Below, piece after piece: positions 43,996 through 64,000 of a stretch of 64,000 bases of DNA (position 1 is its first letter; every line of letters starts with the position of its first letter). The stretch is taken from positions 64,001-128,000 of the forward strand of contig CAVRCJ010000005.1 of the NCBI GenBank assembly GCA_963719515.1. Direction: 5' to 3'. The stretch comes from an uncultured cyanobacterium (GTDB taxonomy: Bacteria > Cyanobacteriota > Cyanobacteriia > CAKZMO01). Both the position numbers and the translations under genes were made by a program. The notes under the pieces are model-generated. The model saw nothing but the letters and a program-made list of their open reading frames with translations, ran no database searches and was not told the DNA's origin.

Positions 43996-45476
43996 CGGGG
44001 TGATGAGGTGCTGAACTCAAAACCTCGCAAAGGCTGAGGATACGTTCGCGAGTTTCAGTCCCCTCGCGGGGTGATGGAGTGCTGAACATGGCAGACTTAT
44101 TTGACTCAGCTACTGGCTGGAATTCATGTTTCAGTCCCCTCGCGGGGTGATGGAGTGCTGAACAGTCAAGATTGACGAAGTGAAAAAACGTCAAAGTCTT
44201 GTTTCAGTCCCCTCGCGGGGTGATGGAGTGCTGAACGGTTAATGCAGTCACGGGACACCTGTGACACTGAGGTTTCAGTCCCCTCGCGGGGTGATGGAGT
44301 GCTGAACACACAATGGACCGGCTAACGGTATCTAGGGAGTAGTTTTAGTCCCCTCGCGGGGTGATGGAGTGCTGAACGGGAATTCTTAAAAACTAGCAAT
44401 AACTCAGATTAAAGGTTTCAGTCCCCTCGCGGGGTGATGGAGTGCTGAACGTTTAAGGGCGAGTATTTTGCTGTTACTCCTGAAGTTTCAGTCCCCTCGC
44501 GGGGTGATGGAGTGCTGAACTCGTACTGGATAAGTTTGAAGTCAGCCTTCTGCAAAGCAGTTTCAGTCCCCTCGCGGGGTGATGGAGTGCTGAACTATCT
44601 AGAAGGCTCAAACGAGCCTAAGATTGGAGAAATGTTTCAGTCCCCTCGCGGGGTGATGGAGTGCTGAACTGTGCGACCAGCAGCGCTTACAACCCCACCC
44701 CCGTTAGTTTCAGTCCCCTCGCGGGGTGATGGAGTTCTGAACGTGATAGAACGGTATTCGGACAATTTTAGTCCAATTGGTTTCAGTCCCCTCGCGGGGT
44801 GATGGAGTGCTGAACACCCAAGGTTTACTCGATGATCGTGGATGAAGAGGTAAGTTTCAGTCCCCTCGCGGGGTGATGGAGTGCTGAACATCTGTGGCAC
44901 TTCGCCAATGACCAGGTGCCAGTCGGGTTTCAGTCCCCTCGCGGGGTGATGGAGTGCTGAACCTATCGAGACCTGAACTTTCCTGGGCTGGATCAAGAAA
45001 TGGTTTCAGTCCCCTCGCGGGGTGATGGAGTGCTGAACATCTACTGGGATGCCATGTTGTTTTAGGCAACCCGTTTAGTTTCAGTCCCCTCGCGGGGTGA
45101 TGGAGTGCTGAACTTCAAGTGCGGCAGCCAAGATTCTGGAAGGTGAGACAGGTTTCAGTCCCCTCGCGGGGTGATGGAGTGCTGAACACGAAATGTTACA
45201 GCGAATTCAATGGCAGTTAAAAGTTTCAGTCCCCTCGCGGGGTGATGGAGTGCTGAACTGAACCCAATGCAGGGAAACGACACTGTACTTGGTGGTTTCA
45301 GTCCCCTCGCGGGGTGATGGAGTGCTGAACGAAAAAGCCTGCTCCGGGGCCTGGAAGACAAGAAACAGTTTCAGTCCCCTCGCGGGGTGATGGAGTGCTG
45401 AACCGTAATGTTCAAGAGCCACTTAGAAAGCGTGGTACGAGTTTCAGTCCCCTCGCGGGGTGATGGAGTGCTGAAC
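43996..45476 (-). CRISPR. CRISPR array 1: 20 complete repeats plus the IS110-split trailer repeat, 20 spacers of 34-40 nt
   Basis: Repeat GTTCAGCACTCCATCACCCCGCGAGGGGACTGAAAC (minus strand). Leader on the right, degenerate repeat on the left. Confidence 0.98.
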
Positions 45477-45946: not shown

Positions 45947-46360
45947 CTACCGTTTCCAGCGCATTGGACGATAGGTCTCCTGCTCCCCTGTTAAACAACG
46001 CACATACTCCCACACCTGCAGCTCAAAGATGCGCCAGTGGCTTACCTTGAGGCCGGTTTGTGGATGAAGGACTTCCTGAAGTAGGCGCTTCTCCCACACC
46101 GTCAAAAACCGCTTCAGTCCATCAGGATGTAGATAAACCCCGCCCCTGGCATCCGGTGGCGTAAAGTCCTCAGGCATCAGCGCCTTGGAGTTGACCACAT
46201 AAGCTACTATCGAATCCACCACTAACGCTCTGAACTCTTCGATCAGGTCAGATACCAGTGCGGGATGATTCTCGCGAGGCACATGCAAATTGCCAAAGTG
46301 TTCAGCCGCTTCAGCAGCAGCCGAGAATTATGCAGCTTCGCCTGCACGCTCGCTTGCAAA
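45947..46360 (-). pseudogene. cas1: cas1 remnant
   Basis: C-terminal HFGNLH...HPALVSDLIEEFR...VDS. An out-of-frame piece AKLHNSRLLLKRLN abuts it, implying an internal deletion. No N-terminus and no cas2 seen. Confidence 0.85.
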
Positions 46361-47719: not shown

Positions 47720-48361
47720 GTGATTCTCCTCAACTATTCTACCACTGAGCTCAACTGCTCCGACTCGGAAGAGTATCGGATTTTGAGCGATGTCTCCTGG
47801 ACCCAATACCAGACGCTACTCAAAGAGCTAGCGAATACCGCCTACCGCGTCTCATATCTCAATGGCGTCTTAGAAGTTGTGGCCCCCAGCCGCCGCCACG
47901 AAAGCAGCAAAACCCGTATTGGCGACCTGCTGCTGATTTATTTTCTGGAAACCAATACGGAATACTTCCCCATGGGCTCGACGACGCTAAGGCAAGAGCA
48001 GCAGGCAGGTGGGGAACCGGATGAGAGCTACTGCATCGGTAGCGACAAGGCGGTCCCTGATCTGGCGATTGAGGTGATCGTCACCAGCGGCAGCATCAAC
48101 CGGCTGGCGCTCTATCAGCGCCTAGGCGTACGGGAAGTGTGGTTTTGGCAGGATGACGCATTCGCGCTGTATCACCAGCACCCAGGCGGGTTTGAGCAGT
48201 ACCCCGACACCTCTGGGTACGAGCCAGTGACGAGCAGCAGGCTACTGCCAGGCCTAGATATTGCCCTGCTAACGGCCTGCGTACGCAATCCAGGTCCGCT
48301 AGCGACAGTGAAGAAATTTCGGCAGCGGCTACAGGCAGACGAATCTCAAGATAAATCGTGA
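47720..48361 (+). CDS. Uma2 family endonuclease
   Basis: GSTTL, EPDESY, PDLAIEV, LGVREVWFW. Confidence 0.88.
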   Translation: MILLNYSTTELNCSDSEEYRILSDVSWTQYQTLLKELANTAYRVSYLNGVLEVVAPSRRHESSKTRIGDLLLIYFLETNTEYFPMGSTTLRQEQQAGGEPDESYCIGSDKAVPDLAIEVIVTSGSINRLALYQRLGVREVWFWQDDAFALYHQHPGGFEQYPDTSGYEPVTSSRLLPGLDIALLTACVRNPGPLATVKKFRQRLQADESQDKS

Positions 48362-49109
48362 GTGGTATGCCCCATCCCCAGCCGCGTTTCGCACCTGTGC
48401 CACAGAAGCTAGCGTAGCGCAGCAATAGATGGGCAACGTTAGCCAGCAGCGGGTCGGCTCGTGACAATACGCGAAGCGAAACGCTACCGGTAAACCCAGA
48501 AATACGGCTGCTGTGGACCTGAAACGATCGCGTCTGGATGCGGTGATGGGATAGGGCGATCGCTCCCCGAAGTAGCTCACCAAATCGTCCCCACCGAGGT
48601 AAACCGGCGCAAAGTGGTTCCAGCGCTCTAGCCAGCTGCGAAACATTAGGGTAGGCACAGGGAGCGGTAGGTAAAGTTTGCTTTGAGAAAAGGCCGTTGG
48701 TGTCGCAAATCTCAGGTCGAATTGCCGCACCGGGTCCGGCTCGCTAGCAACGTACTCGTGATACAGCGTCTCGTAGCTGGTGACTTCGTCCTCGCGGTTG
48801 ACGATGTTGAAGCGGGCTCCCAGGGACTGGAGCTGATCACCTAAGTCGAGGGAGGCGATGGCCTTGGATGAGGGCTCCTGTAAGCCGCTGAGGGAGAGCT
48901 GGTAGAGAGCTCGCCCGGCTAAAGGTGACGAACTCTTTAGACGTTCTGCAGTGGCCTAAAATTCCCGAAAAGGTAGTCGAGGGTGTAGCTTCGCTGCCCA
49001 TCTCAATTTGGAGCTGGGTATGGAGCAGTTTGGATAGTTCTAGACCGTAGGACTTGGGTAGGGAAACTGTGGTGTCGGTGGTCAGCGTCCAGGATGAGCG
49101 AATGAGCAT
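48346..49109 (-). pseudogene. cas6: Cas6 endoribonuclease, frameshifted in this sequence
   Basis: F.TPTAF, P.P.LMFRSWLERWN.F, Gly loop GTGAK|TRLGMG across a 1-nt gap in an A-run. Confidence 0.85.
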
Positions 49110-49111
49110 GG

Positions 49112-50387
49112 TTACACCGCCTTTAGCTCAATCCAGCCAGGAACGTATTTGATTTCCCCTCTAGAATTCATGATGGTTCGTCGGGATTTAGGCGCTTCAA
49201 AATCCGGTGCTTTGATGCCGCAGGCGTCGCGAATATCGCCTACTAGCTCATCTGGCATCAACAGATTGACCGTTGTGCCCCGAAAGCCGCTGCCCCAACC
49301 CAGCCGCAGCGTATGGGGGCAGACCTCCGGCTCGTAGATGTCTTGAATATCGCCAAAGTCCAGATTGCGTCCCTGAGCATTGGGGTTATTCTGCACCGCC
49401 GCCCAATAGTCGTGCTCAAAATCCCACTGGTCTTGGGCAAACTCGCGGCAGATTTGCAGTAGGTCATCCACGGATTGAAAGGGCAACTGCATCCCCGCAT
49501 TGTGGTGGAACCAGGACAGCATCCGTGGTCAATGCTGAGGGTGAATTCGGTCGGCACGTTGAACACCATCTGGCGTAGATGGAGGCGCGGTACTTGGCGC
49601 GGTAGTCCGGGAAACGGCTGGAGACGACGACTTCAGTCACCACTGGCAAATTTCTGAAGATGGGGCGCTTTCCCTGCGCTGCACCTTCTCCTCAATCAGC
49701 GGCTCCGTGTCTGATACTTGAATTGCCCGCATGATGTCGGTATTGGGTCCCTGCCGCGCTTTCACTTCCCGACCTGGTAGCGGAGGCCAAAGTTGGTAAA
49801 TAGCTCATCCATAAACGCCGCATCGTCAAAGAACTCGGCCTTGCGTCGCAGCTCTCCATCGATTTGCGGAGCCTGTCCTCAATGGCGCTCACGCGGTGTT
49901 GCTTAGGCACTTTGTAGCGGTCAGCGTGCTTCAGCAAGATGGTAGGCGATCGCCGTCCGCAGCGCCCCTTTAATAGAGGAGCCGGGAATGTAGTGGTGGT
50001 TGAACCCATTGCGAATCATGGGCCGTAAATCGGTGATGCGATCGTTGACCCAGTCCAGGCTGCGGGACTCTCTCGGGGAAAGAGAGGCTGTCCGTCTTCT
50101 GTAGTCATCCGCACCCAGTCATCCCCGAAGGCATCGTTTAGCAGGTCGCCGATCGACTCGCGATCTTCAATGCAATGCACATAGTCATTCAAAAAGCCCC
50201 GCTGCTTAAGGGCCTTTGCCAGCGCTTCTGAGTCCGGCAGATAGACAAATCGATTGGCCTGCACGTATTCGAACGGGTTGAGCCGCGAGACCGCTGAGCC
50301 GATGTGCAGGATTCGGCTGGTAAGACGAATCTGCTTAGTCTCGTAGATGCTGGGTTTGGGCAGCGGTGAGTTAGTTGCGGAGGTCAT
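49112..50387 (-). pseudogene. csm5: type III-A RAMP Csm5, frameshifted in this sequence
   Basis: LHIGS...LNPFEY, LRLGWGSGF.GTT, PKSRR, PGW. Confidence 0.85.
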
Positions 50388-50795
50388 ACCAGTTCTCTAT
50401 GCTGAGGTGGAGAAGCCTGCGTAATCGCTGATGTTTCGGGTAACTAGAATCAAGTTGTTCGTGTGGGCGATCGCAGCAATCTGTCCATCTACGAAGGGAG
50501 GTGTTGCCAAGCTCGCCCAGTCTCGCGCGCTCTGCGGCGTGCCATGTAGCACTTTCAGCGTCATATGATAGGAGTGGGACTGTCTTTCGAACGACGTTAG
50601 CTAGATAGGACTCAATCGCCTGCCGCTTTCGCGATTCCGCCAACCGTTGGCAACCGAACCACATTTCGTGCCAGACGACTGAAGCTGTGCTGACTTGCTC
50701 ACGGTAATGTTCTAATTGTTTCAGACACTGAGGCTGGTACGCTTCCGCACTGGCTCGGAGAGAATATTTGTATCTAAGAGGTAGCGTAAACTCAT
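50371..50795 (-). pseudogene. vapC: VapC/PIN toxin, frameshifted in this sequence
   Basis: MSLRYLLDTNILSE, then in another frame VVWHEMWFG...; ends IENW. Confidence 0.8.
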
Positions 50796-51069
50796 CGATC
50801 AACTTCTCGCCCTGGAGATGAATTGCTCAGCCCTTCAAACACGTCAGCCTCAATTCCCTCAGCTTCTATGTTAAATTCACGTCGAAACGCTGTTAGAGCA
50901 TCCCAGAAGTCAGGTTTGGATATTGTTAGTCGCTCATAATTCTGGCTAGAGACCAAGACCGCAACTCGTCTACCTGATTTCAAGATTTCAACTAGAGTGC
51001 CCTGTTCTACCTCAGCCATGATGTCGCTGAGCTGAGTTGGGCCTGCTCGATTGAATATTGACTGGGCAT
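50792..51069 (-). pseudogene. Phd/YefM antitoxin, one frameshift
   Basis: AGGAGG RBS; MPSQYSIEQA|LSDIMAEVEQG..VEI..SGRRVAVLVS...YERL. Confidence 0.78.
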
Positions 51070-51084
51070 GGTCCTCCTAATTGG

Positions 51085-52279
51085 CTAAGCCACTTCTTCC
51101 TTTAGCTGGACAGACAAACTCAGAGCAACCCCGCTGCGATAGACCGAATGTCGCAGGCCCGGGTGCGGGCCAATTCACCGCTGCCGTCATCGAATATCCG
51201 GGCGTCACGTCAGCCAGCCGCCCGACAGGCTGCTTCGGAAAGACCGACCCCTCGGTAAACATGCGAATCATTTGGCGGCGGAGTTGGCGACCAGAGGGGG
51301 AGGCAATCCAGCCGCCTCGATCTTGAACGCCGTAGCGAGCGCTCTCCCCCAGCCAGGTTCGATTTAGGCTCTTGTCCCAAAACAGGCTGATTAGGCCGTG
51401 ATGGTCACCCCCCTCAAAATTGCACCATTGCCGTCCAATCAGCAGGCAGCTCCTCCCACGCACACACCGTGAACCGGCCCGCCCCGCTAGAGCGCTCGCC
51501 CCCCACGCCCGTTTCGCCAAGCACCGTCAGCGTCTGGCGCAGCTCCTGCTCTAGCTCAGGTGCAGCCTCGGGAAGCTCTAGCAAGAAGTACAGCCCGGCT
51601 AATTGCTCGACATTTGGATCGCCCCAGTCCTCAGTGCTTCCGCGCCCCGGCTGCCAAGCGAACTGAATCAGCCCGGTGTGGTAGAGGTTTGTGGCGCGAG
51701 TGGTGCGATCGATGGCAACTTTGGGTAGGGTGTAGCGGGTGAAGGCATCGCCATAGCTAAACGTTTCTGCTTGGGCAAGGGCGGTGGGGAAAGCTCCACC
51801 ATCGGCTTTGCTTTCCTTAGTCTCGCGCTTTTTGAGTTCTTCCCCATCCTCAACCGCAAACCCATTGCCCTGGTACCAGCGCTGCCAAACTGACTTGGGC
51901 AGATAGGTCAGTTTTTTATAGGCCTTGGCAAAGCTCAAATCATCGTCGGGATCACACCAGGTGGACCTCCGGCTAGCTTGGGGAGGTAGTCAATGAAACC
52001 ATCTCCCTGGCGACGATAAACGAAGGTGGAGCTGAGGCGAAACAGGCGGAGCTGTGGAGGGACCTAAAAACTGCTATCGCCCAGCACTTCTACTTCGGGT
52101 TTATCGCCAACAGCATCCCCAGGTTGGTTGAAATAATCTCTGGCATAGGTGCTGATCAAGGCGCTAAACAACGTATCCGACTGCAGCCGCTCGGTAGTTT
52201 CTTCTAGGCCAATGCCCACTTGCCCAAAATGGGTTGGGCTGCGCCCAAAGTTGAGGCGCACTAGTCTCCATTCGCTCAT
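51085..52279 (-). pseudogene. csm4: type III-A RAMP Csm4, frameshifted in this sequence
   Basis: HFG..G.G, SDTLFSAL, GVGGERSSGAGRF, EGSVF, HSVYRSG. Confidence 0.88.
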
Positions 52280-52320
52280 GGCTGTCCTCTAGTTTTCCTC
52301 TGGCTTTCCTCTAGCTATTC

Positions 52321-53300
52321 TCAATCGCCACCGGGCAACAGTCGCTCAACCTCAACAGTTAGGTCGCCAAAGCGTTCTAGCAGCATAGTCGTATTGTCCA
52401 GCGTCAGAATCGGATCTGAAAAGTTAGCGCCAGCGGCTGTAATCTGCCGGTACTGCTCCACGCTGCGGTAGTAAAACTTGAAATTCTCAAACCGCACTTT
52501 GCCGTAGCCCCGCGACCCGTGGCCGCCTAGGGCGTCGTCTTCAAGGATAGCGAGGGCGATCGCAATGTTCTTGAGGTCTTCTACCGCCTGGGTTTTGTTT
52601 TCTACGGTGTAAACCAGCTCAAAATAAAGATCAGCACCAGCCGGGACGCGCTCACTCTGACGGGGGTTGGCGGCGGCGGTGATGCGATCGAGGCCGTTTT
52701 CGAATTTCCAGCTCAATTTCATAAAAACCAGGCCCGGTATCGATTTTTCTTCGAGCTGCTGGCAGACTGGGGCGAACAGTGGCATCGCGGCCATCCGTAA
52801 AGCCGGGCGTTAAGCCTTTTGGTGCGATTGTACTTTGCAACCATCAGATCGGTCGCAGAAATTAATGCGTCGATATCGTCAGCTAGTCCTGGTAAAGGGC
52901 GATCACCGGGCAGTCCAGGCGTTTTCCTCCCCCGTAGATCCAAACAGTTTTGGCTTTGCATTTATTGGCCGCCGATATCGCGCACATATTGACCATCGCC
53001 AATATCGGTGAAGCCATCCACTAGGTCATCGCTTTCGTAGCGATAGGTGCCGCTGCCGCCAGCGCGGTTGAGCGGCTTATTTAACAGCCGCTCCAAGGTC
53101 GCCCGCAGCTTGCCCTTAATCGAAGAACCTGGTAGATAAGGCTGCTGGGTGACCGGGTCGCGAATGACTGATTTATCTAGCCCGCCAATATCCAGCGTCT
53201 CGCCGCCGCCACCGATGTGGAGCCCTGTTTCTGCAGTCAAGGTACTCACCAGCCTTAGCTTTCCGAGCAGCGGCTTCTGGTCTCTGGTCACAACGGTCAT
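52321..53300 (-). pseudogene. csm3: type III-A backbone Csm3, frameshifted in this sequence
   Basis: TGLHIGG....IGGLD..VIRDP, PGSSIKGKLR, ANPRQ.ERVP, LGGHGSRGYG. Confidence 0.9.
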
Positions 53301-57016: not shown

Positions 57017-57268
57017 CCTCACATTCCTATGAGAAGAAAGACCAACACGAGATTGAATTGAAATGCGATCGCGATCGCCTGGGCGTGTTTCTATCCCCGT
57101 GAGGGGAAGACGGCGCGAAACAAGCATCCACGAAAAGATCGAAGGCAGGGCCGCCTTGTTTCCATCCCCGTGAGGGGAAAATGGCGCGAAACCGCTCGCA
57201 GTGGTTGAAGATGAACGGAACAAAATGATGCAAGTTTCCATCCCCGTGAGGGGAAAATGGCGCGAAAC
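57017..57268 (-). CRISPR. mini-array A: three 35-bp repeats plus a degenerate trailer repeat
   Basis: GTTTCCATCCCCGTGAGGGGAAAATGGCGCGAAAC (+ strand) at 57087 (variant), 57158 and 57234. Leader motif at 57416. Confidence 0.88.
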
Positions 57269-57656
57269 CCCACCCCTTTTAGAACGCCCATCACACAAGG
57301 CATCGAGATACCCCGAACCACAGAGGTCTAAAAGAGAAGTCAATAGACAAGAACTGCTTGCATCAGACGTACGGAAAGTAACGCCTAAACCCTTGCGGGA
57401 CAAGCAATCCACATAGGTCAACGTAACTATGCGGTTTTCAAGGATCGGTAGACCTCTGTGGCCAGAGCGTCATTGCCCCAACTATAGTGCCGAATACCGT
57501 TTTCTATCCGCGCCTCAAGAATTTCTTTAGAGTCAGACTACGGTCGATTGACCCGGCGGGTAAACACGCTGTAGAGCCGAGCCAAAATCAACTCGCGATC
57601 TAAGGTGCGTATATTGCGAGCCACAGTAAAGCTAACAGGACTGACGTAAGGTCACC

Positions 57657-58079: not shown

Positions 58080-58184
58080 CCCCATATTCCTATGAGAGGA
58101 AAAACCAATGCGAGATTGAATTGAAATGCGATCGCGATCGCCTGGGCGCGTTTCAATCCCCGTGAGGGGAAAAAGAATCGAAAC
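58080..58184 (-). CRISPR. mini-array B: one repeat, one 33-nt spacer, one degenerate repeat
   Basis: GTTTCAATCCCCGTGAGGGGAAAAAGAATCGAAAC at 58150-58184. Leader motif at 58331. Confidence 0.75.
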
Positions 58185-58422
58185 CTCCTCGATTTAGAAC
58201 CTCCGCCCCATAAGGCTTTCAGATAGCCAAAATTGCGGGGGACGGAAATATGAGGTCATAGTTGCGAAACGCTTGCAACAGGCCAGAGCAGAATAATGCT
58301 CAAACCCAGTCATAGTAAGCCCTCCGCGGGGGTCAACGTAATTATGCGGTTTTCAAGGATCGGCAGACCCCCACAGATGGAGGTCCATGCGCCAAATATA
58401 GTGCTCATCGCCTCGAATGTGT

Positions 58423-59277: not shown

Positions 59278-59712
59278 TTACAGCCCCTCAAGCTCCTCCC
59301 GCAAGACCTGAGAATCCCTCCAAGCGCTTACACGTCCATCGCGATAAACCTTAGCGATAAACGGTGCCGGATTTTCTCTAGCGAAATTTTGCATGCTCGT
59401 CATCGCTTGAGTAAAAGCTGCAATGGTGTTAGCCCCAGATAAATTCTGAGAGGTCAGCACGAACATCTTAACGTTGGCGCTAGCTACCGCTAGACGTTCT
59501 AAAGTTCGCTTACCGATCCGCTCATCCTTGGTGAGAACGATCCACCCTCGGCGTCCTATCTCGGGAAGCCAGTCTACGTCAGGAGCATCTTTAGCAAAGT
59601 GGTCGTCATGAATCTCGACGGTGAGGTTGAGATCCCGCAGAGCTTGAGCCAGCTTCTTGCGGCCTAAGCACCTGTCAATGAAAAAGGTTGCGACTTCAGA
59701 TGATGAAGTCAT
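59278..59712 (-). CDS. PIN-like (VapC45-type) toxin
   Basis: FFIDRCLG, DAPD.DWL, WIVLTKD.RI. Confidence 0.85.
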   Translation of the reverse strand: MTSSSEVATFFIDRCLGRKKLAQALRDLNLTVEIHDDHFAKDAPDVDWLPEIGRRGWIVLTKDERIGKRTLERLAVASANVKMFVLTSQNLSGANTIAAFTQAMTSMQNFARENPAPFIAKVYRDGRVSAWRDSQVLREELEGL

Positions 59713-60410
59713 GCCGCCGCTGGCATTTCACAGCGAATCGCTTCTTCCACAAATAAAGGCGGACAATCGTAGTCTTCCACTAAGTCTTGAATTGAATCCC
59801 CCGCTTTATACCTTTCTGCAATGACGCCTGTTGGAATGCCAGTCTTATCAATGACGAGCCGACCAAACGCAATGCGAGGGTCAATAACAACAATACGCGG
59901 GTTGTGGGCCTCGTCAGCTCGGGTAAAGGGGTAAAGCTTAATAGCCAGCCCAGAATCATCTGGCTCGATGCGTTCTAGATGCGTCTTGACCACCTCTTTC
60001 AAACTGGTTTGTCCCTGTTGCGAAGCGCTGATGAGGGTACCGTAACGTTCAATAAACAGATTGACGCCGTCAGTGCTAAAGCTTTCGTGGGCTAACGGAT
60101 GGGAAACCCGAAGCTGATCTTCGAGGAAATCTAGAGCGCTCCGAACTTTGTCCAGCTGGATCTTGTGATACTTGCGAATTGCCCTCAAAACGTGGACTTC
60201 GACTAGGTTTGTAAATGACAGCAGTCGGGGTTTGAGATCGTCTGTGGAGATCAAGGGTTCAAAAAAGCGCTCTCCCTGTGATACTGGATATGACCGACCT
60301 GCCGTCCACGAACGAATTGTGCCCGCTGGAATTCTCAAATAGCGAGCAGCATCGCTAATTGCGTAGGTCGGAATGTTTTGAGGATTCCCACCGTCATACA
60401 GGTTTGCCAT
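59709..60410 (-). CDS. HTH plus DUF433 antitoxin
   Basis: Y.I.DAARYL.IP..TIRSW, LSF.NLVE, IDPRIAFGR.VI..TGI, AGDSI..L..DY. Overlaps the toxin start by 4 nt. Confidence 0.88.
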   Translation of the reverse strand: MANLYDGGNPQNIPTYAISDAARYLRIPAGTIRSWTAGRSYPVSQGERFFEPLISTDDLKPRLLSFTNLVEVHVLRAIRKYHKIQLDKVRSALDFLEDQLRVSHPLAHESFSTDGVNLFIERYGTLISASQQGQTSLKEVVKTHLERIEPDDSGLAIKLYPFTRADEAHNPRIVVIDPRIAFGRLVIDKTGIPTGVIAERYKAGDSIQDLVEDYDCPPLFVEEAIRCEMPAAA

Positions 60411-60626: not shown

Positions 60627-61856
60627 ATGCAATTTGCCTCCACTTTCCTCTCCCACGCCTCTGTAGACAAACCTCTAGTCGAAGCCGTCGCCCAGCGGCT
60701 CGGTCGCCGGGGCGTCTTGGCCTGGCTCGACAAAACCGAGCTAGCCCTGGGTTCTCTAAGCGCCGCCCTCAAGCAGGCCGTCCAGCAGCAGGCCACCATC
60801 ACCCTGTTTCTCTCCGAAGCCGCGATCGCCTCCGACTGGTGCCGGGATGAGCTGCTCTACGCCCTCGAAAATGCCGAGAACTTGGACCACATTCTGCCGG
60901 TGTACCTGGGTGACCCCGTCGCGCTGGTGACAAAACACCCCATCCTGCGATCGCGTTTCCTGCATCCCGACGGCGATCGCGTTGACCAGCTTGGAGTCTT
61001 TGACTCAAGCAATCCCACAAGCCCCGACCCAGACGTCGTAGCCCAGATGATTGCCGCCACCGTTTATGGGCACCTATCAGTAGAGTCATCCCCCGAAGTC
61101 GCGATCGTCTTAGATCAGCGGGGGAATGGACCGCGTCGGGGCCGTCTGCCGTCTATCCCCACTAACGTGCAGAGCTTATCGATTCCTGCGCTTACCTTTC
61201 GGCCCGATATCGGCGTACGGCAGCAGCGATCGCTTTTGACCGGCAGCGACTGGGAGGACATGAGCCAAACGATGGCATCCGCCTTCGACGCGGCCTTGGG
61301 CACTATGCGCGGCGACTCTCGCAAGGTTCTGATTCTTGGGAATGCTCAAACGGGGCTGATGTGGGCCGTTGGCCAGCACTTTAACCGGACGACCTCGGCA
61401 GATTTGTACGTCTATGGCAGAGAGGGCGTACCCTTGTCTAATAAAGGACAGATTCGGCATACGTCTTTGTCTGGTGGCGATTCGCAGCGGGCAACGCTTG
61501 TCTCTAACCCTGCGGACCTAGGTGCTAACCAGGCAGAAGTTGCTTTAGGGGTTGGCCCTTCAGAGAAATTTAAAGCGGCTGTCCAAAAAGCGGTTCCTCA
61601 GGTTCCCCTATTCTGGGTTGAGTCTGGCCGTATTGAGAATTCGGAGCAGGCGATGACGCTGGCTGCAGATATCGTCGCCTCGGTTGAGCATCTTCGCCAA
61701 ACCTATGGCGTTGAGCAGTTGACGATGTTCTGGACGACGGCAAATCATGCAGCAACCCTAGTGGCCGCAAATTTGACGTCGCACGTTATCTCCAACGTCA
61801 GATACATGGAGTGGGACCACGGCAGCGGAGAATACGTCCATCTGCCAATGCCGTAG
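60627..61856 (+). CDS. TIR-SAVED-like cyclic-oligonucleotide-activated NADase effector
   Basis: N-terminal TIR (FLSHAS.DK, SDWCRDEL with Glu). The C-terminal part has two SAVED-like halves (VLILGNAQTGLMWAVG; LTMFWTT..HAATLVA...YMEW....YV). Confidence 0.75.
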   Translation: MQFASTFLSHASVDKPLVEAVAQRLGRRGVLAWLDKTELALGSLSAALKQAVQQQATITLFLSEAAIASDWCRDELLYALENAENLDHILPVYLGDPVALVTKHPILRSRFLHPDGDRVDQLGVFDSSNPTSPDPDVVAQMIAATVYGHLSVESSPEVAIVLDQRGNGPRRGRLPSIPTNVQSLSIPALTFRPDIGVRQQRSLLTGSDWEDMSQTMASAFDAALGTMRGDSRKVLILGNAQTGLMWAVGQHFNRTTSADLYVYGREGVPLSNKGQIRHTSLSGGDSQRATLVSNPADLGANQAEVALGVGPSEKFKAAVQKAVPQVPLFWVESGRIENSEQAMTLAADIVASVEHLRQTYGVEQLTMFWTTANHAATLVAANLTSHVISNVRYMEWDHGSGEYVHLPMP

Positions 61857-62094: not shown

Positions 62095-62850
62095 GTTTCA
62101 GTCCCCTGACGGGGTGAAGTAGTCCTGAACGAGGGTCCTGACGGAACGCTCAGCATCGCATTAGTTGTTTCAGTCCCCTGACGGGGTGAAGTAGTCCTGA
62201 ACCAGTTCCTCAAACTGCTGTAGAGGCAAGCAACAGGTTTCAGTCCCCTGACGGGGTGAAGTAGTCCTGAACCCTTCTTCTTCACGGGCAACCGGCCCGG
62301 AGACGGGGCGTTTCAGTCCCCTGACGGGGTGAAGTAGTCCTGAATTCAAATGCGAATTCGACAAAGTTCTACAAAGGTTTGGGTTTCAGTCCCCTGACGG
62401 GGTGAAGTAGTCCTGAACCTGTAACGGGAAGGGAAAGGTAAAGAATCATCGCGGTGGTTTCAGTCCCCTGACGGGGTGAAGTAGTCCTGAACACGTTCGA
62501 GGAAATGCGGACATAGATATCTGTGGGTTTCAGTCCCCTGACGGGGTGAAGTAGTCCTGAACTGCCAATGCTTGGGTGTATGGCGTTCATTTACTGGATT
62601 GTGTTTCAGTCCCCTGACGGGGTGAAGTAGTCCTGAACCGATGATATCCTGAAGGGAGACATCAACACGGGAGTTTCAGTCCCCTGACGGGGTGAAGTAG
62701 TCCTGAACGCGCCTAGGTTCTTTCTCTCCACGTTTGTTGAGAGGTTTCAGTCCCCTGACGGGGTGAAGTAGTCCTGAACAATAAAGTTAAGTCTATCTAG
62801 AAGCGGAGCATCTGGTTTCAGTCCCCTGACGGGGTGAAGTAGTCCTGAAC
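62095..62850 (-). CRISPR. CRISPR array 2: 11 repeats, 10 spacers of 34-40 nt
   Basis: Repeat GTTCAGGACTACTTCACCCCGTCAGGGGACTGAAAC (minus strand). Leader on the right. Confidence 0.98.
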
Positions 62851-63030
62851 CCCCACCTTCTAGAACCCTTGCTACACAAGCCTTCCAGAAGCCGATTTTG
62901 ACAGGTCCAAAACTTGTTGTCAATAGGCCCATTCTCTGAGCAATTATAAATCTCAGAAAACGTCTGAAACGCTTATCTGACAACGCTTGTGACAAGGTCA
63001 ACGGAATAATGCGGTTTTCAAGGTTCGGCG
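62851..63030 (-). promoter_or_regulatory. CRISPR leader 2
   Basis: Similar to leader 1. Motif GGTCAACGGAATAATGCGGTTTTCAAGG at 62996. Confidence 0.8.
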
Positions 63031-63404
63031 CACACTGATACATTAACCCACTTCTCCTCATTTGTCCCATCCCGTAAGGTAATCTTCACAATCTCCCTCT
63101 AGCCCTCAAAGTCAAGCCCAGCAATAAATCTAACCCCTCCAGCCACAGCCATACTCAGCTCCACAGACCCATCGATTTTAGGCAAAAGCCCCCTTTCACC
63201 ACTCCACATCAGGAAGCCCAAAAAATGCGCCTTAATGCATTTGGTATGCACAAAAAAGCCACCAAAGGCGATCGCCTCCGACTAAAACCCTCACGCCAAA
63301 AACATTCCAGCCATTCAGGCCGCCGAGCCATCACTGACAAAATTTCTACACTAAGCGGTATACCCCACCACTTCTCCACCACCACCACCACAGCACATCC
63401 CCAT

Positions 63405-63440
63405 GCTAAGCTACACCCAACCCCAAACGGGGACCGAAAC
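63405..63440 (+). repeat. solitary CRISPR-repeat-like unit just upstream of cas6
   Basis: GCTAAGCTACACCCAACCCCAAACGGGGACCGAAAC: 36 nt with a CCCC-N4-GGGG stem and an AC(C)GAAAC end. Confidence 0.7.
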
Positions 63441-63454
63441 ACAAAATCCCCACC

Positions 63455-64000
63455 ATGGCAACTACCAAACCCCGCCGCAAAACTTCCCAACCCAAGCGCA
63501 CCACCAAAGCCTCCCAGCCCACCTGGCCAAAGAACACAGAACTCCTGCGCCTCACCTTCACCCTCATCCCCGACAAAGACTACGACCTCTACGCCCAATA
63601 CTCCATCGGCCTCCACGCCTGGTTCCTGCAGCAGATTCAAGAGACCAACCCCAAGCTCTCCCAAACCCTCCACGACGACGCCAACGAAAAAGCCTTCACC
63701 GTTTCTGGCCTAGACGGTGCCTTCGTCCCCAGCGGCCAGCAGCTGCGCCTGGTTGCCAAAAAGCCCTACCGCTGGACCGTCACAGCCTTCTCAAAAAAAC
63801 TCGTGCAGTGGCTCGCCAAATGGCTCAAAACCTTGCCGCCTACCCTAGAGCTGCGAAATGCCGTGCTCACCATCAACGGCGTTGCCGTCGAAGCCGCCAC
63901 CACCTACGAGGCAGCTAGCGCAGCAGGCCCACGCCGACAAAGATGCCAGCGACGCCCCAAAATCGCCCTCAGCTTCACCTCCCCCACCAGCTTCCGGAGT
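63455..64000 (+). CDS. cas6: second Cas6 endoribonuclease (partial, runs off the window)
   Basis: Manual translation: YSIGLHAWFLQQI....P.LS..LHD...EKAFTVS.L, TTYE, LSFTSPTSFR. Confidence 0.88.
   Translation, partial: MATTKPRRKTSQPKRTTKASQPTWPKNTELLRLTFTLIPDKDYDLYAQYSIGLHAWFLQQIQETNPKLSQTLHDDANEKAFTVSGLDGAFVPSGQQLRLVAKKPYRWTVTAFSKKLVQWLAKWLKTLPPTLELRNAVLTINGVAVEAATTYEAASAAGPRRQRCQRRPKIALSFTSPTSFRS

What the first reader, a model, noticed from the sequence alone, without database searches (positions are those of the whole stretch)
63405..63457. Solitary CRISPR-like repeat 14 nt upstream of the cas6 start codon: possible Cas6 autoregulation
Seen: a 36-nt unit on the cas6 sense strand, opposite in orientation to the arrays. 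It keeps the CCCC-N4-GGGG stem and 3' handle (ACCGAAAC versus ACTGAAAC) of arrays 1 and 2 while the 5' half has diverged. It ends at 63440 and the ATG is at 63455. Known: Cas6 binds the repeat hairpin and cuts at its 3' base, leaving an 8-nt handle. Inference: Cas6 could bind or cut its own mRNA leader, giving negative feedback or defined maturation, or the product could load as a pseudo-crRNA.
Basis: partly seen in the sequence, partly recalled or inferred. Interest (0 to 1): 0.82.

Follow-up and report, generated by a model that had tools for sequence, protein, structure and literature searches.

The report
Repeat-mimic operator in cas6 promoter
Many cyanobacteria keep one lone copy of the core of their CRISPR repeat in the promoter of the RNA-cutting enzyme Cas6, which here carries an unexplained DNA-binding domain, so the enzyme probably switches off its own gene by gripping that copy as DNA; this is inferred from sequence comparison, not shown.

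Summary
The element is real, but only its 3' 21 bases are repeat-like; the 'diverged 5' half' holds an extended -10 motif. The gene is a 388-aa Cas6 with a C-terminal helix-turn-helix (HTH), a domain whose function Reimann 2020 calls elusive. A TCCCC-N4-GGGGA palindrome (at most 1 mismatch) lies in front of 63 of 108 orthologous loci (shuffles 1.1); 54 are solitary, the rest terminal array repeats. Arms are conserved, loops are free (40 different loops in 54). In 43 of 63 a -10-like hexamer follows within 12 bases (shuffles 12.7), so the site usually lies upstream of the predicted transcript; in this genus it lies just downstream of the -10. This fits a DNA operator overlapping the promoter better than an mRNA cleavage site. 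Best reading (0.5): Cas6-HTH represses its own gene through a repeat-derived operator, titrated by array repeats. Against it: changes fall almost only in the left arm (G-U compatible), the handle is partly kept, and HTH conservation does not track the site, so an RNA role (0.25) stays open, above all in this clade. No TSS or binding data. Not found in my literature searches or in the scan's notes.

The parts
63404..63412 (+). Extended -10 motif (TGnTAnnnT) of the predicted cas6 promoter; predicted TSS about 63419
   Evidence: Identical in 3 of 3 congeners with diverged flanks; background 0.008 per 22 positions; a TGnTAnnnT motif also precedes the site in the nearest outgroup L129. No TSS data; the strict two-hexamer scan does not list it.
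63420..63433 (.). Repeat-derived palindrome, 5-4-5 geometry (consensus TCCCC-N4-GGGGA, one mismatch here): candidate operator and possible RNA hairpin
   Evidence: 63 of 108 orthologous loci with at most 1 mismatch versus 1.1 in shuffles and 0 of 108 inside the CDS; column profile
63433..63440 (+). 3' handle remnant of the repeat (7 of 8 identical to arrays 1 and 2)
   Evidence: across 54 solitary sites only two A positions stay at 47 and 45 of 54; lost in L129
63455..64000 (+). 5' part of the stand-alone cas6 gene (388 aa, ends at G000:C5:128621) with C-terminal three-helix HTH domain (about residues 310-388, beyond the window)
   Evidence: conserved His54 and Gly-rich loop
62095..62850 (-). 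CRISPR array 2 (11 repeats), divergent from cas6; each repeat carries the same palindrome arms
62851..63050 (-). Leader of array 2 (79% like the leader of array 1)
   Evidence: families D7, D13
44052..45476 (-). CRISPR array 1 (20 repeats), same stem and handle

Best explanation
The element is a CRISPR-repeat-derived DNA operator in the cas6 promoter. Shown by comparison: it descends from the last repeat of an array that once lay directly upstream of cas6 (still so in 8-9 loci), its two arms are kept while the loop drifts, and it overlaps the core promoter, usually between or over the -35 and -10 positions, in this genus at about +2 to +15. Inferred: the Cas6 dimer carries two sigma-region-4-like HTH domains on flexible linkers that grip the two GGGGA half-sites as double-stranded DNA and block RNA polymerase, giving negative autoregulation. 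Further inferred: because every array repeat holds the same arms, the arrays bind and titrate the protein, so Cas6 supply follows repeat number and the enzyme is parked beside nascent pre-crRNA. In this genus the site is also transcribed, so a second, RNA-level effect is possible.
For: Conservation: 63 of 108 loci, shuffles 1.1, CDS control 0 of 108; 24 of 45 protein clusters at 70% identity; 0 of 8 HTH-less cas6 genes have it (weak control, probably operon-internal); only 2 other isolated perfect copies in 629 kb of flanks. Position: -10-like hexamer 0-12 bases downstream in 43 of 63 (shuffled 12.7 +/- 3.0, max 23), upstream in 5 of 63; outside the handle (gap 6-12) 29 of 51 versus 5.7; behind internal array repeats 48 of 865; a stricter post hoc rule gives 39 sense versus 4 antisense; one locus per cluster 14.8 of 21 versus 4.4. 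The gap to the -10 varies from 0 to 12 and more, and flips to the other side in this clade, as repressor sites do (general knowledge). Loop: 40 different loops in 54 solitary sites, 2 GNRA, while 25 of 34 local arrays have GCAA. In 7 of 55 solitary sites the handle fits better on the antisense side (clearest L016, L068; L057 and L083 are confounded by the -10). Protein: confident three-helix HTH (pLDDT 91), nearest folds ECF sigma region 4 and DeoR DNA-binding domain (weak, E 0.36, Z 7.1, rmsd 2.0 over 51), recognition helix strongly conserved; Reimann 2020 suggests a dsDNA-binding role for this domain in Alr1482 and calls its function elusive. Homodimer model: score 0.58, best of 3 controls 0.01, runs agree in at least 92% of contacts, pLDDT at least 82; the mark was reached by 20 of 30 proteins solved as pairs and 1 of 23 solved as single chains; the interface is in the Cas6 domain, so the pass may reflect likeness to solved Cas6 dimers.
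Against: No binding, TSS or expression data. Asymmetry: the right arm is invariant in 54 of 54 solitary sites and all 11 mismatches are in the left arm, 6 of the 7 internal ones C>T, which keeps G-U pairing on the sense strand; with 2-mismatch sites added, 18 left versus 1 right among solitary sites; L126 has a compensated pair. Two A positions of the handle stay at 87% and 83% with no mirror image on the left, and 47 of 55 solitary sites keep the sense orientation. These suit a hairpin. HTH conservation does not track the site once divergence is matched; 45 of 108 loci lack the site, including a degenerate one in Synechocystis 6803. With the loose -10 rule the antisense strand is also enriched (35 of 63; 20 versus 7.8). 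Kin are not independent. The bare palindrome has 34 isolated copies in this genome.
Confidence: 0.5

Rival explanations
1. RNA-level feedback: the site is transcribed, the Cas6 domain binds the hairpin and cuts before the handle (63432/63433), and the cas6 mRNA is destabilised, handed to the Csm complex and trimmed, or cut free from upstream read-through RNA.
For: In this genus the predicted TSS is 1-2 bases upstream of the stem and the handle is nearly intact. Left-arm C>T bias, invariant right arm, partial handle conservation, mostly sense orientation. Cas6-2a-type enzymes need the hairpin and cut 8 nt from the 3' end (Reimann 2017, passages).
Against: -10-like box downstream of the site in 43 of 63 and upstream in 5 of 63; the nearest upstream ORF is divergent in 26 of 55 solitary loci, same-strand in 19, none in 10 (mechanical ORFs), so read-through is often unavailable; loop and 5' half, which arrays conserve, are lost; cleavage here would leave the ORF and a 22-nt leader intact; the hairpin is displaced by an alternative pairing in the predicted leader; handle lost in L129. 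Leaves the HTH unexplained.
Confidence: 0.25
2. The non-template DNA strand of the promoter folds out as a hairpin and is held by the RNA-binding cleft of Cas6, with the HTH anchoring on neighbouring duplex DNA.
For: Would reconcile the hairpin-like asymmetry with the position upstream of the -10.
Against: A 4-6 bp stem is unlikely to extrude from duplex DNA (general knowledge); some sites are antisense-oriented; I know no precedent (recall).
Confidence: 0.1
3. The palindrome is bound as DNA by another protein (a host transcription factor, or Cas1-Cas2, which reads repeat DNA), not by Cas6-HTH.
For: HTH conservation is independent of the site; one clade has a different palindrome at the same place with an unchanged HTH.
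Against: The site equals the repeat arms and is confined to the promoter of the one cas gene with an HTH.
Confidence: 0.1
4. Functionless scar: a terminal repeat left behind when arrays moved, or an off-target integration product.
For: 8-9 loci still have an array ending at this place; Shmakov 2023 regard type III stand-alone repeats as degraded and non-functional (passages).
Against: Arms intact in 43 of 54 solitary sites while loops and flanks are saturated, across 21 protein clusters.
Confidence: 0.05

Closest known systems
Alr1482 (Anabaena 7120) and Cas6-2a/Slr7068 (Synechocystis 6803), long type III-associated cyanobacterial Cas6 (bioRxiv 10.1101/2020.04.14.041012; PMC3575380; PMC5741207)
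   Same: Same architecture (about 70-aa sigma-region-4-like C-terminal domain; Slr7068 is 41% identical) and same repeat family.
   Different: Those papers give the domain no function and, in the parts I read, mention no promoter element; Alr1482 itself was not compared here.
CreR / CreA / crlRNA mini-arrays (bioRxiv 10.1101/2023.03.10.532045; 10.1101/2023.03.03.530964)
   Same: Repeat-derived element near a cas promoter giving autoregulation that senses CRISPR volume.
   Different: Those are transcribed guides for type I or V-A effectors with a spacer matching a PAM-flanked promoter site. Here: one repeat core, no second repeat, no target, type III-A locus, site usually upstream of the -10.
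Solitary repeat units and Racr RNA anti-CRISPRs (PMC10651486, listing and start of abstract only)
   Same: A single repeat outside an array.
   Different: Racrs are viral, near-identical to the host repeat and act as RNA; this site sits in a host cas promoter with free loop and lost 5' half.
[quoted passage not shown]
   Same: A protein that binds CRISPR repeats as DNA; its cited reference is titled as modulating CRISPR locus transcription.
   Different: Stand-alone archaeal protein, not fused to Cas6; no solitary operator copy known to me; homology not tested.
Dimeric HTH autorepressors on palindromic operators, and dedicated cas regulators such as CvkR (listing), Csa3 and WYL proteins (recalled)
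   Same: HTH protein, fixed-spacer inverted repeat overlapping its own promoter.
   Different: Here the putative repressor is the crRNA maturase itself and the operator is a copy of the repeat core, so arrays would compete for it.

Membership tests
CreR / crlRNA mini-array | Two repeat-like units flanking a spacer | tested here: not met
   Next best repeat-like 36-mer between the array leader and the start of cas6 is 18 of 36
CreR / crlRNA mini-array | Spacer partly complementary to a cas promoter site | tested here: not met
   The 35 bases after the handle match nothing better than 24 of 35 elsewhere in the genome, none in this locus
CreR / crlRNA mini-array | Type I or V-A effector that uses the guide | tested here: inconclusive
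   The locus is type III-A; the genome was not searched for Cascade or Cas12
SRU / Racr | Nearly identical copy of the host repeat | tested here: not met
   22 of 36 here; loops and 5' halves diverged in orthologues
SRU / Racr | Transcribed, Cas6-processed small RNA that inhibits the effector | not testable with these tools
   Needs RNA data and assays
Cas6 substrate repeat in an mRNA leader | Stem plus 8-nt 3' handle on the sense strand | tested here: met
   In the window; handle degenerate in many orthologues
Cas6 substrate repeat in an mRNA leader | Lies downstream of the transcription start | tested here: inconclusive
   Predicted yes in this genus (extended -10 upstream), predicted no in 43 of 63 loci; no mapped TSS for a locus with an intact site
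HTH autorepressor with palindromic operator | HTH DNA-binding domain in the gene product | tested here: met
   (fold matches individually weak but all of one kind at the top)
HTH autorepressor with palindromic operator | Conserved fixed-spacer inverted repeat overlapping its own promoter | tested here: met
   (promoter predicted from -10 motifs)
HTH autorepressor with palindromic operator | Dimer presenting two HTH domains | tested here: inconclusive
   Model supports a homodimer via the Cas6 domain, 0.58 versus best control 0.01; may be likeness to solved Cas6 dimers
HTH autorepressor with palindromic operator | Recognition helix co-varies with the operator | tested here: not met
   No difference between loci with and without the site at matched divergence
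HTH autorepressor with palindromic operator | Binding and repression demonstrated | not testable with these tools
   Needs EMSA, footprint, reporter
Cbp1-type repeat DNA-binding protein | Binds array repeats as DNA; homology to Cbp1 | not tested
   No comparison with Cbp1 was run

The most novel reading that the evidence does not exclude
Cas6-HTH is a maturase that reads the CRISPR repeat twice: as RNA with its nuclease domain and as DNA with its HTH. Binding to array DNA tethers it for co-transcriptional processing (which could explain why Cas6-2a is promiscuous in vitro but array-specific in vivo, Reimann 2017), and a single repeat core kept in its own promoter turns it into a counter of repeat copies, including scattered orphan arrays: a guide-free, DNA-titration form of CRISPR autoregulation.
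Probability: 0.3. Interest if true: 0.88.

Novelty: new variant of a known kind. Interest (0 to 1): 0.74.

Why it matters
It gives a precise candidate target for the unexplained sigma-region-4-like domain of the cyanobacterial long Cas6 (found in 100 of 401 genomes of the class; 1081 database proteins carry the domain among 8000 scored), which one gel-shift and one reporter can test. Type III stand-alone repeats were judged non-functional in the systematic survey (Shmakov 2023); here is one that is positionally conserved across a class. If true, a crRNA-processing enzyme doubles as a transcription factor that binds repeats as DNA, linking Cas6 supply to array size without a guide RNA. If the RNA rival holds instead, it would still be a Cas6 acting on its own transcript, which my searches did not find described.

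Tried and rejected
Sequencing runs: no RNA holder listed; contigs of four related DNA runs were laid on the locus and show nothing on transcription. TSS look-up: in Synechocystis 6803 only an internal unit TU7064 starting at pSYSA 62931, downstream of a degenerate site at about 62827-62840, is listed for slr7068 (Kopf 2014 supplement file 2; file 1 not searchable); the TIER-seq tables list only positions 63023 and 63244 (file cut when stored); the supplement of PMC10939160 could not be read; these unseen files may bear on the TSS. No TSS for alr1482 found. Upstream ATG at 63403 as true start: in frame in two congeners (51 bases) but out of frame here (52 bases), two relatives' contigs cover 63403-63552 without a gap, and wobble positions are fixed while amino acids change; rejected. 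CreR-type guide: rejected. Regulon: no further solitary sites before other genes in the fetched flanks or before cas10 and TIR-SAVED here. HTH-site covariation: null. PDB sequence search with the HTH profile: best E 0.053; Foldseek no match at E 0.001 or better. Strict sigma-70 scan finds no + strand promoter. Family-level and metagenome searches added one close relative only. Literature searches that found no report of this element or of Cas6 DNA binding; most subscription papers are not in the library. Scan notes: nothing on this stretch or protein.

Full report
Observation. The 36-mer at 63405-63440 lies on the + strand, 14 bases before the ATG at 63455, about 570 bases from the leader end of array 2, which reads on the - strand. 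It matches the repeats of arrays 1 and 2 at 22 of 36 positions: all 8 stem bases, 7 of 8 handle bases, none of the 4 loop bases of array 2. The stem-plus-handle pattern is otherwise confined to arrays and to one lone repeat at 58150, but 22 of 36 alone is chance level (59 isolated 36-mers). So the repeat-like part is 63420-63440. The part before it holds an extended -10 motif (63404-63412), identical in both congeners that have the gene while the flanks differ, which puts the predicted TSS at about 63419.

The gene. It runs past the window end, is 388 aa long and is followed by no other cas gene. It is Cas6 with a C-terminal sigma70 region-4-like hit. The model has a Cas6 fold, a low-confidence linker and a separate helical domain (pLDDT 89); that domain alone folds as a three-helix HTH preceded by a long helix (pLDDT 91) and its nearest solved folds are ECF sigma region 4 and the DeoR DNA-binding domain, each match weak. 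Reimann 2020 (parts 1-4 of 5 read) describe the same extra domain in Alr1482, suggest dsDNA binding and call its function elusive. The neighbourhood is a type III-A system (cas10, csm3, csm4). A homodimer through the Cas6 domain is supported by a model (0.58, best of 3 controls 0.01; runs agree in at least 92% of contacts, pLDDT at least 82; 20 of 30 solved pairs and 1 of 23 single chains reach the mark; likeness to solved Cas6 dimers may explain the pass).

Orthologues. The long Cas6 was found in 100 of 401 genomes of the class. Of the 105 match rows, 30 came as loci, 60 were fetched, 9 were already held, and 6 partial, broken or contig-edge rows were left out; 6 of the 17 long plasmid hits were fetched, and one search added 9 loci. 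Of 126 loci, 113 had the N-terminus aligned and 200 bases upstream; 5 duplicates were dropped, leaving 108 (97 full-length). In the 210 bases before the conserved Trp, 63 of 108 carry TCCCC-N4-GGGGA with at most one mismatch, against 1.1 in dinucleotide shuffles, 0 of 108 inside the CDS and 7 of 105 behind the stop (not checked one by one; arrays often lie there). 54 are solitary and 9 are the last repeat of a same-strand upstream array (55 and 8 by the rule). Array-terminal and solitary forms are sisters on the protein tree with the same downstream promoter sequence (L124, L062, L075, L050), so the site descends from a terminal repeat. It is present in 24 of 45 clusters at 70% identity. Only 2 other isolated perfect copies occur in 629 kb of flanks, and 0 of 8 HTH-less cas6 genes have one (weak control). 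L129 and L131, fetched later, also carry it.

DNA or RNA. For DNA: a -10-like hexamer follows the palindrome within 12 bases in 43 of 63 loci (shuffled 12.7 +/- 3.0) and precedes it in 5. The excess holds outside the handle (29 of 51 versus 5.7), against internal array repeats (48 of 865) and after thinning to one locus per cluster (14.8 of 21 versus 4.4). With the loose rule the antisense strand is enriched too; a stricter rule chosen afterwards gives 39 versus 4. Where the hexamer overlaps the handle, it varies at the positions a -10 tolerates. So in most lineages the palindrome lies in untranscribed promoter DNA; in this genus and L129 it lies 7-11 bases downstream of the -10 motif, 20-22 bases before the ATG. 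The loop is saturated (40 loops in 54 sites, 2 GNRA) whereas local arrays have GCAA in 25 of 34. Seven sites carry the better handle on the antisense side. For RNA or a hairpin: the right arm is invariant, all 11 mismatches are in the left arm and are mostly C>T, two handle adenines are kept at 47 and 45 of 54, and 47 of 55 sites face sense. An HTH that reads one arm plus the A-tract more tightly than the other arm, as ECF sigma region 4 reads its -35 element (recalled), could give this asymmetry, but that is inference. HTH conservation does not differ between loci with and without the site: the domain has a job independent of the solitary copy, which array repeats would provide, or the site belongs to another protein.

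Mechanism. Shown: conservation, origin, promoter overlap by motif statistics, HTH fold. Inferred: binding, repression, titration by arrays, tethering. I put 0.5 on the operator, 0.25 on RNA-level feedback (and both may act in this genus, where cleavage at 63432/63433 would leave the ORF whole), 0.1 on an extruded DNA hairpin, 0.1 on another binder, 0.05 on a scar.

Comparison. It works like an HTH autorepressor and, in outcome, like CreR, but fails the CreR tests (no second repeat, no target) and is not a Racr. Shmakov 2023 (passages) found repeat-like sequences near cas6 in type I-B but judged type III ones degraded and unconserved. Reimann 2017 (passages) report unexplained in vivo specificity of Cas6-1 and Cas6-2a. 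Cbp1 (passages of PMC5815122) is the precedent for repeat DNA binding. Other papers seen: Scholz 2013 (passages), the RpaB preprint (passages), the CreR preprint (passages), Wei 2025 (abstract), Kopf 2014 and Hoffmann 2021 (supplement rows), PMC13640635 (passages, not relevant), Camara-Wilpert 2023 (listing). Searches found no description of this promoter element.

Caveats. No experimental TSS for a locus with an intact site; Synechocystis 6803 has only a degenerate one. Several cas genes of this assembly are in pieces, so either the assembly has indel errors or the system here is decaying; the conclusion rests on the orthologues. Verdict: real, conserved, most likely a repeat-mimic operator; new variant of a known kind; interest 0.74.

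Noticed in passing
window 48329-53300 and 46088-46300 (- strand): csm3, csm4, the in-operon HTH-less cas6 and cas1 are found only in pieces in different frames, while cas10 is whole: assembly indels or decay. The long Cas6 is the only uninterrupted cas6 found in the genome.
   Followed up: partly
window about 63913-63955: Within cas6 two relatives' contigs lack 1 base and then 14 bases, so the window's gene has a short compensated frame-shifted stretch in a variable loop; real or assembly error is open.
   Followed up: partly
L017, L018, L091, L098, L101, L104 (family f4), about 95-130 bases before the conserved Trp: A different conserved palindrome with the GGG and CCC halves in everted order sits at the promoter, in L017 and L018 directly before a -10-like box, although these genomes have ordinary repeats and an unchanged HTH.
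   Followed up: partly
L019, L089, L095, L112 and others: 11 of 45 loci without a full site keep a right-arm-like word followed by a -10-like hexamer (no chance control run).
   Followed up: partly
window 57087-57269 and 58150-58185: A three-repeat mini-array and a lone repeat of a third repeat type, each with its own leader-like copy and shared flanks (families D5, D6, D8, D16, D20): a duplicated leader-repeat unit.
   Followed up: no
window 60627-61856: TIR-SAVED gene next to array 2, a likely cyclic-oligoadenylate effector of the type III-A system.
   Followed up: no
window 50371-51019 and 59278-60410: A phd/VapC-like pair inside the csm operon and a DUF433/PIN pair beside it.
   Followed up: no
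G000:C6:210297-213722 and G000:C10:416423-417327: Further arrays with the same stem on other contigs; no intact cas6 or cas1 found near them, so probably orphan arrays served by this Cas6.
   Followed up: no
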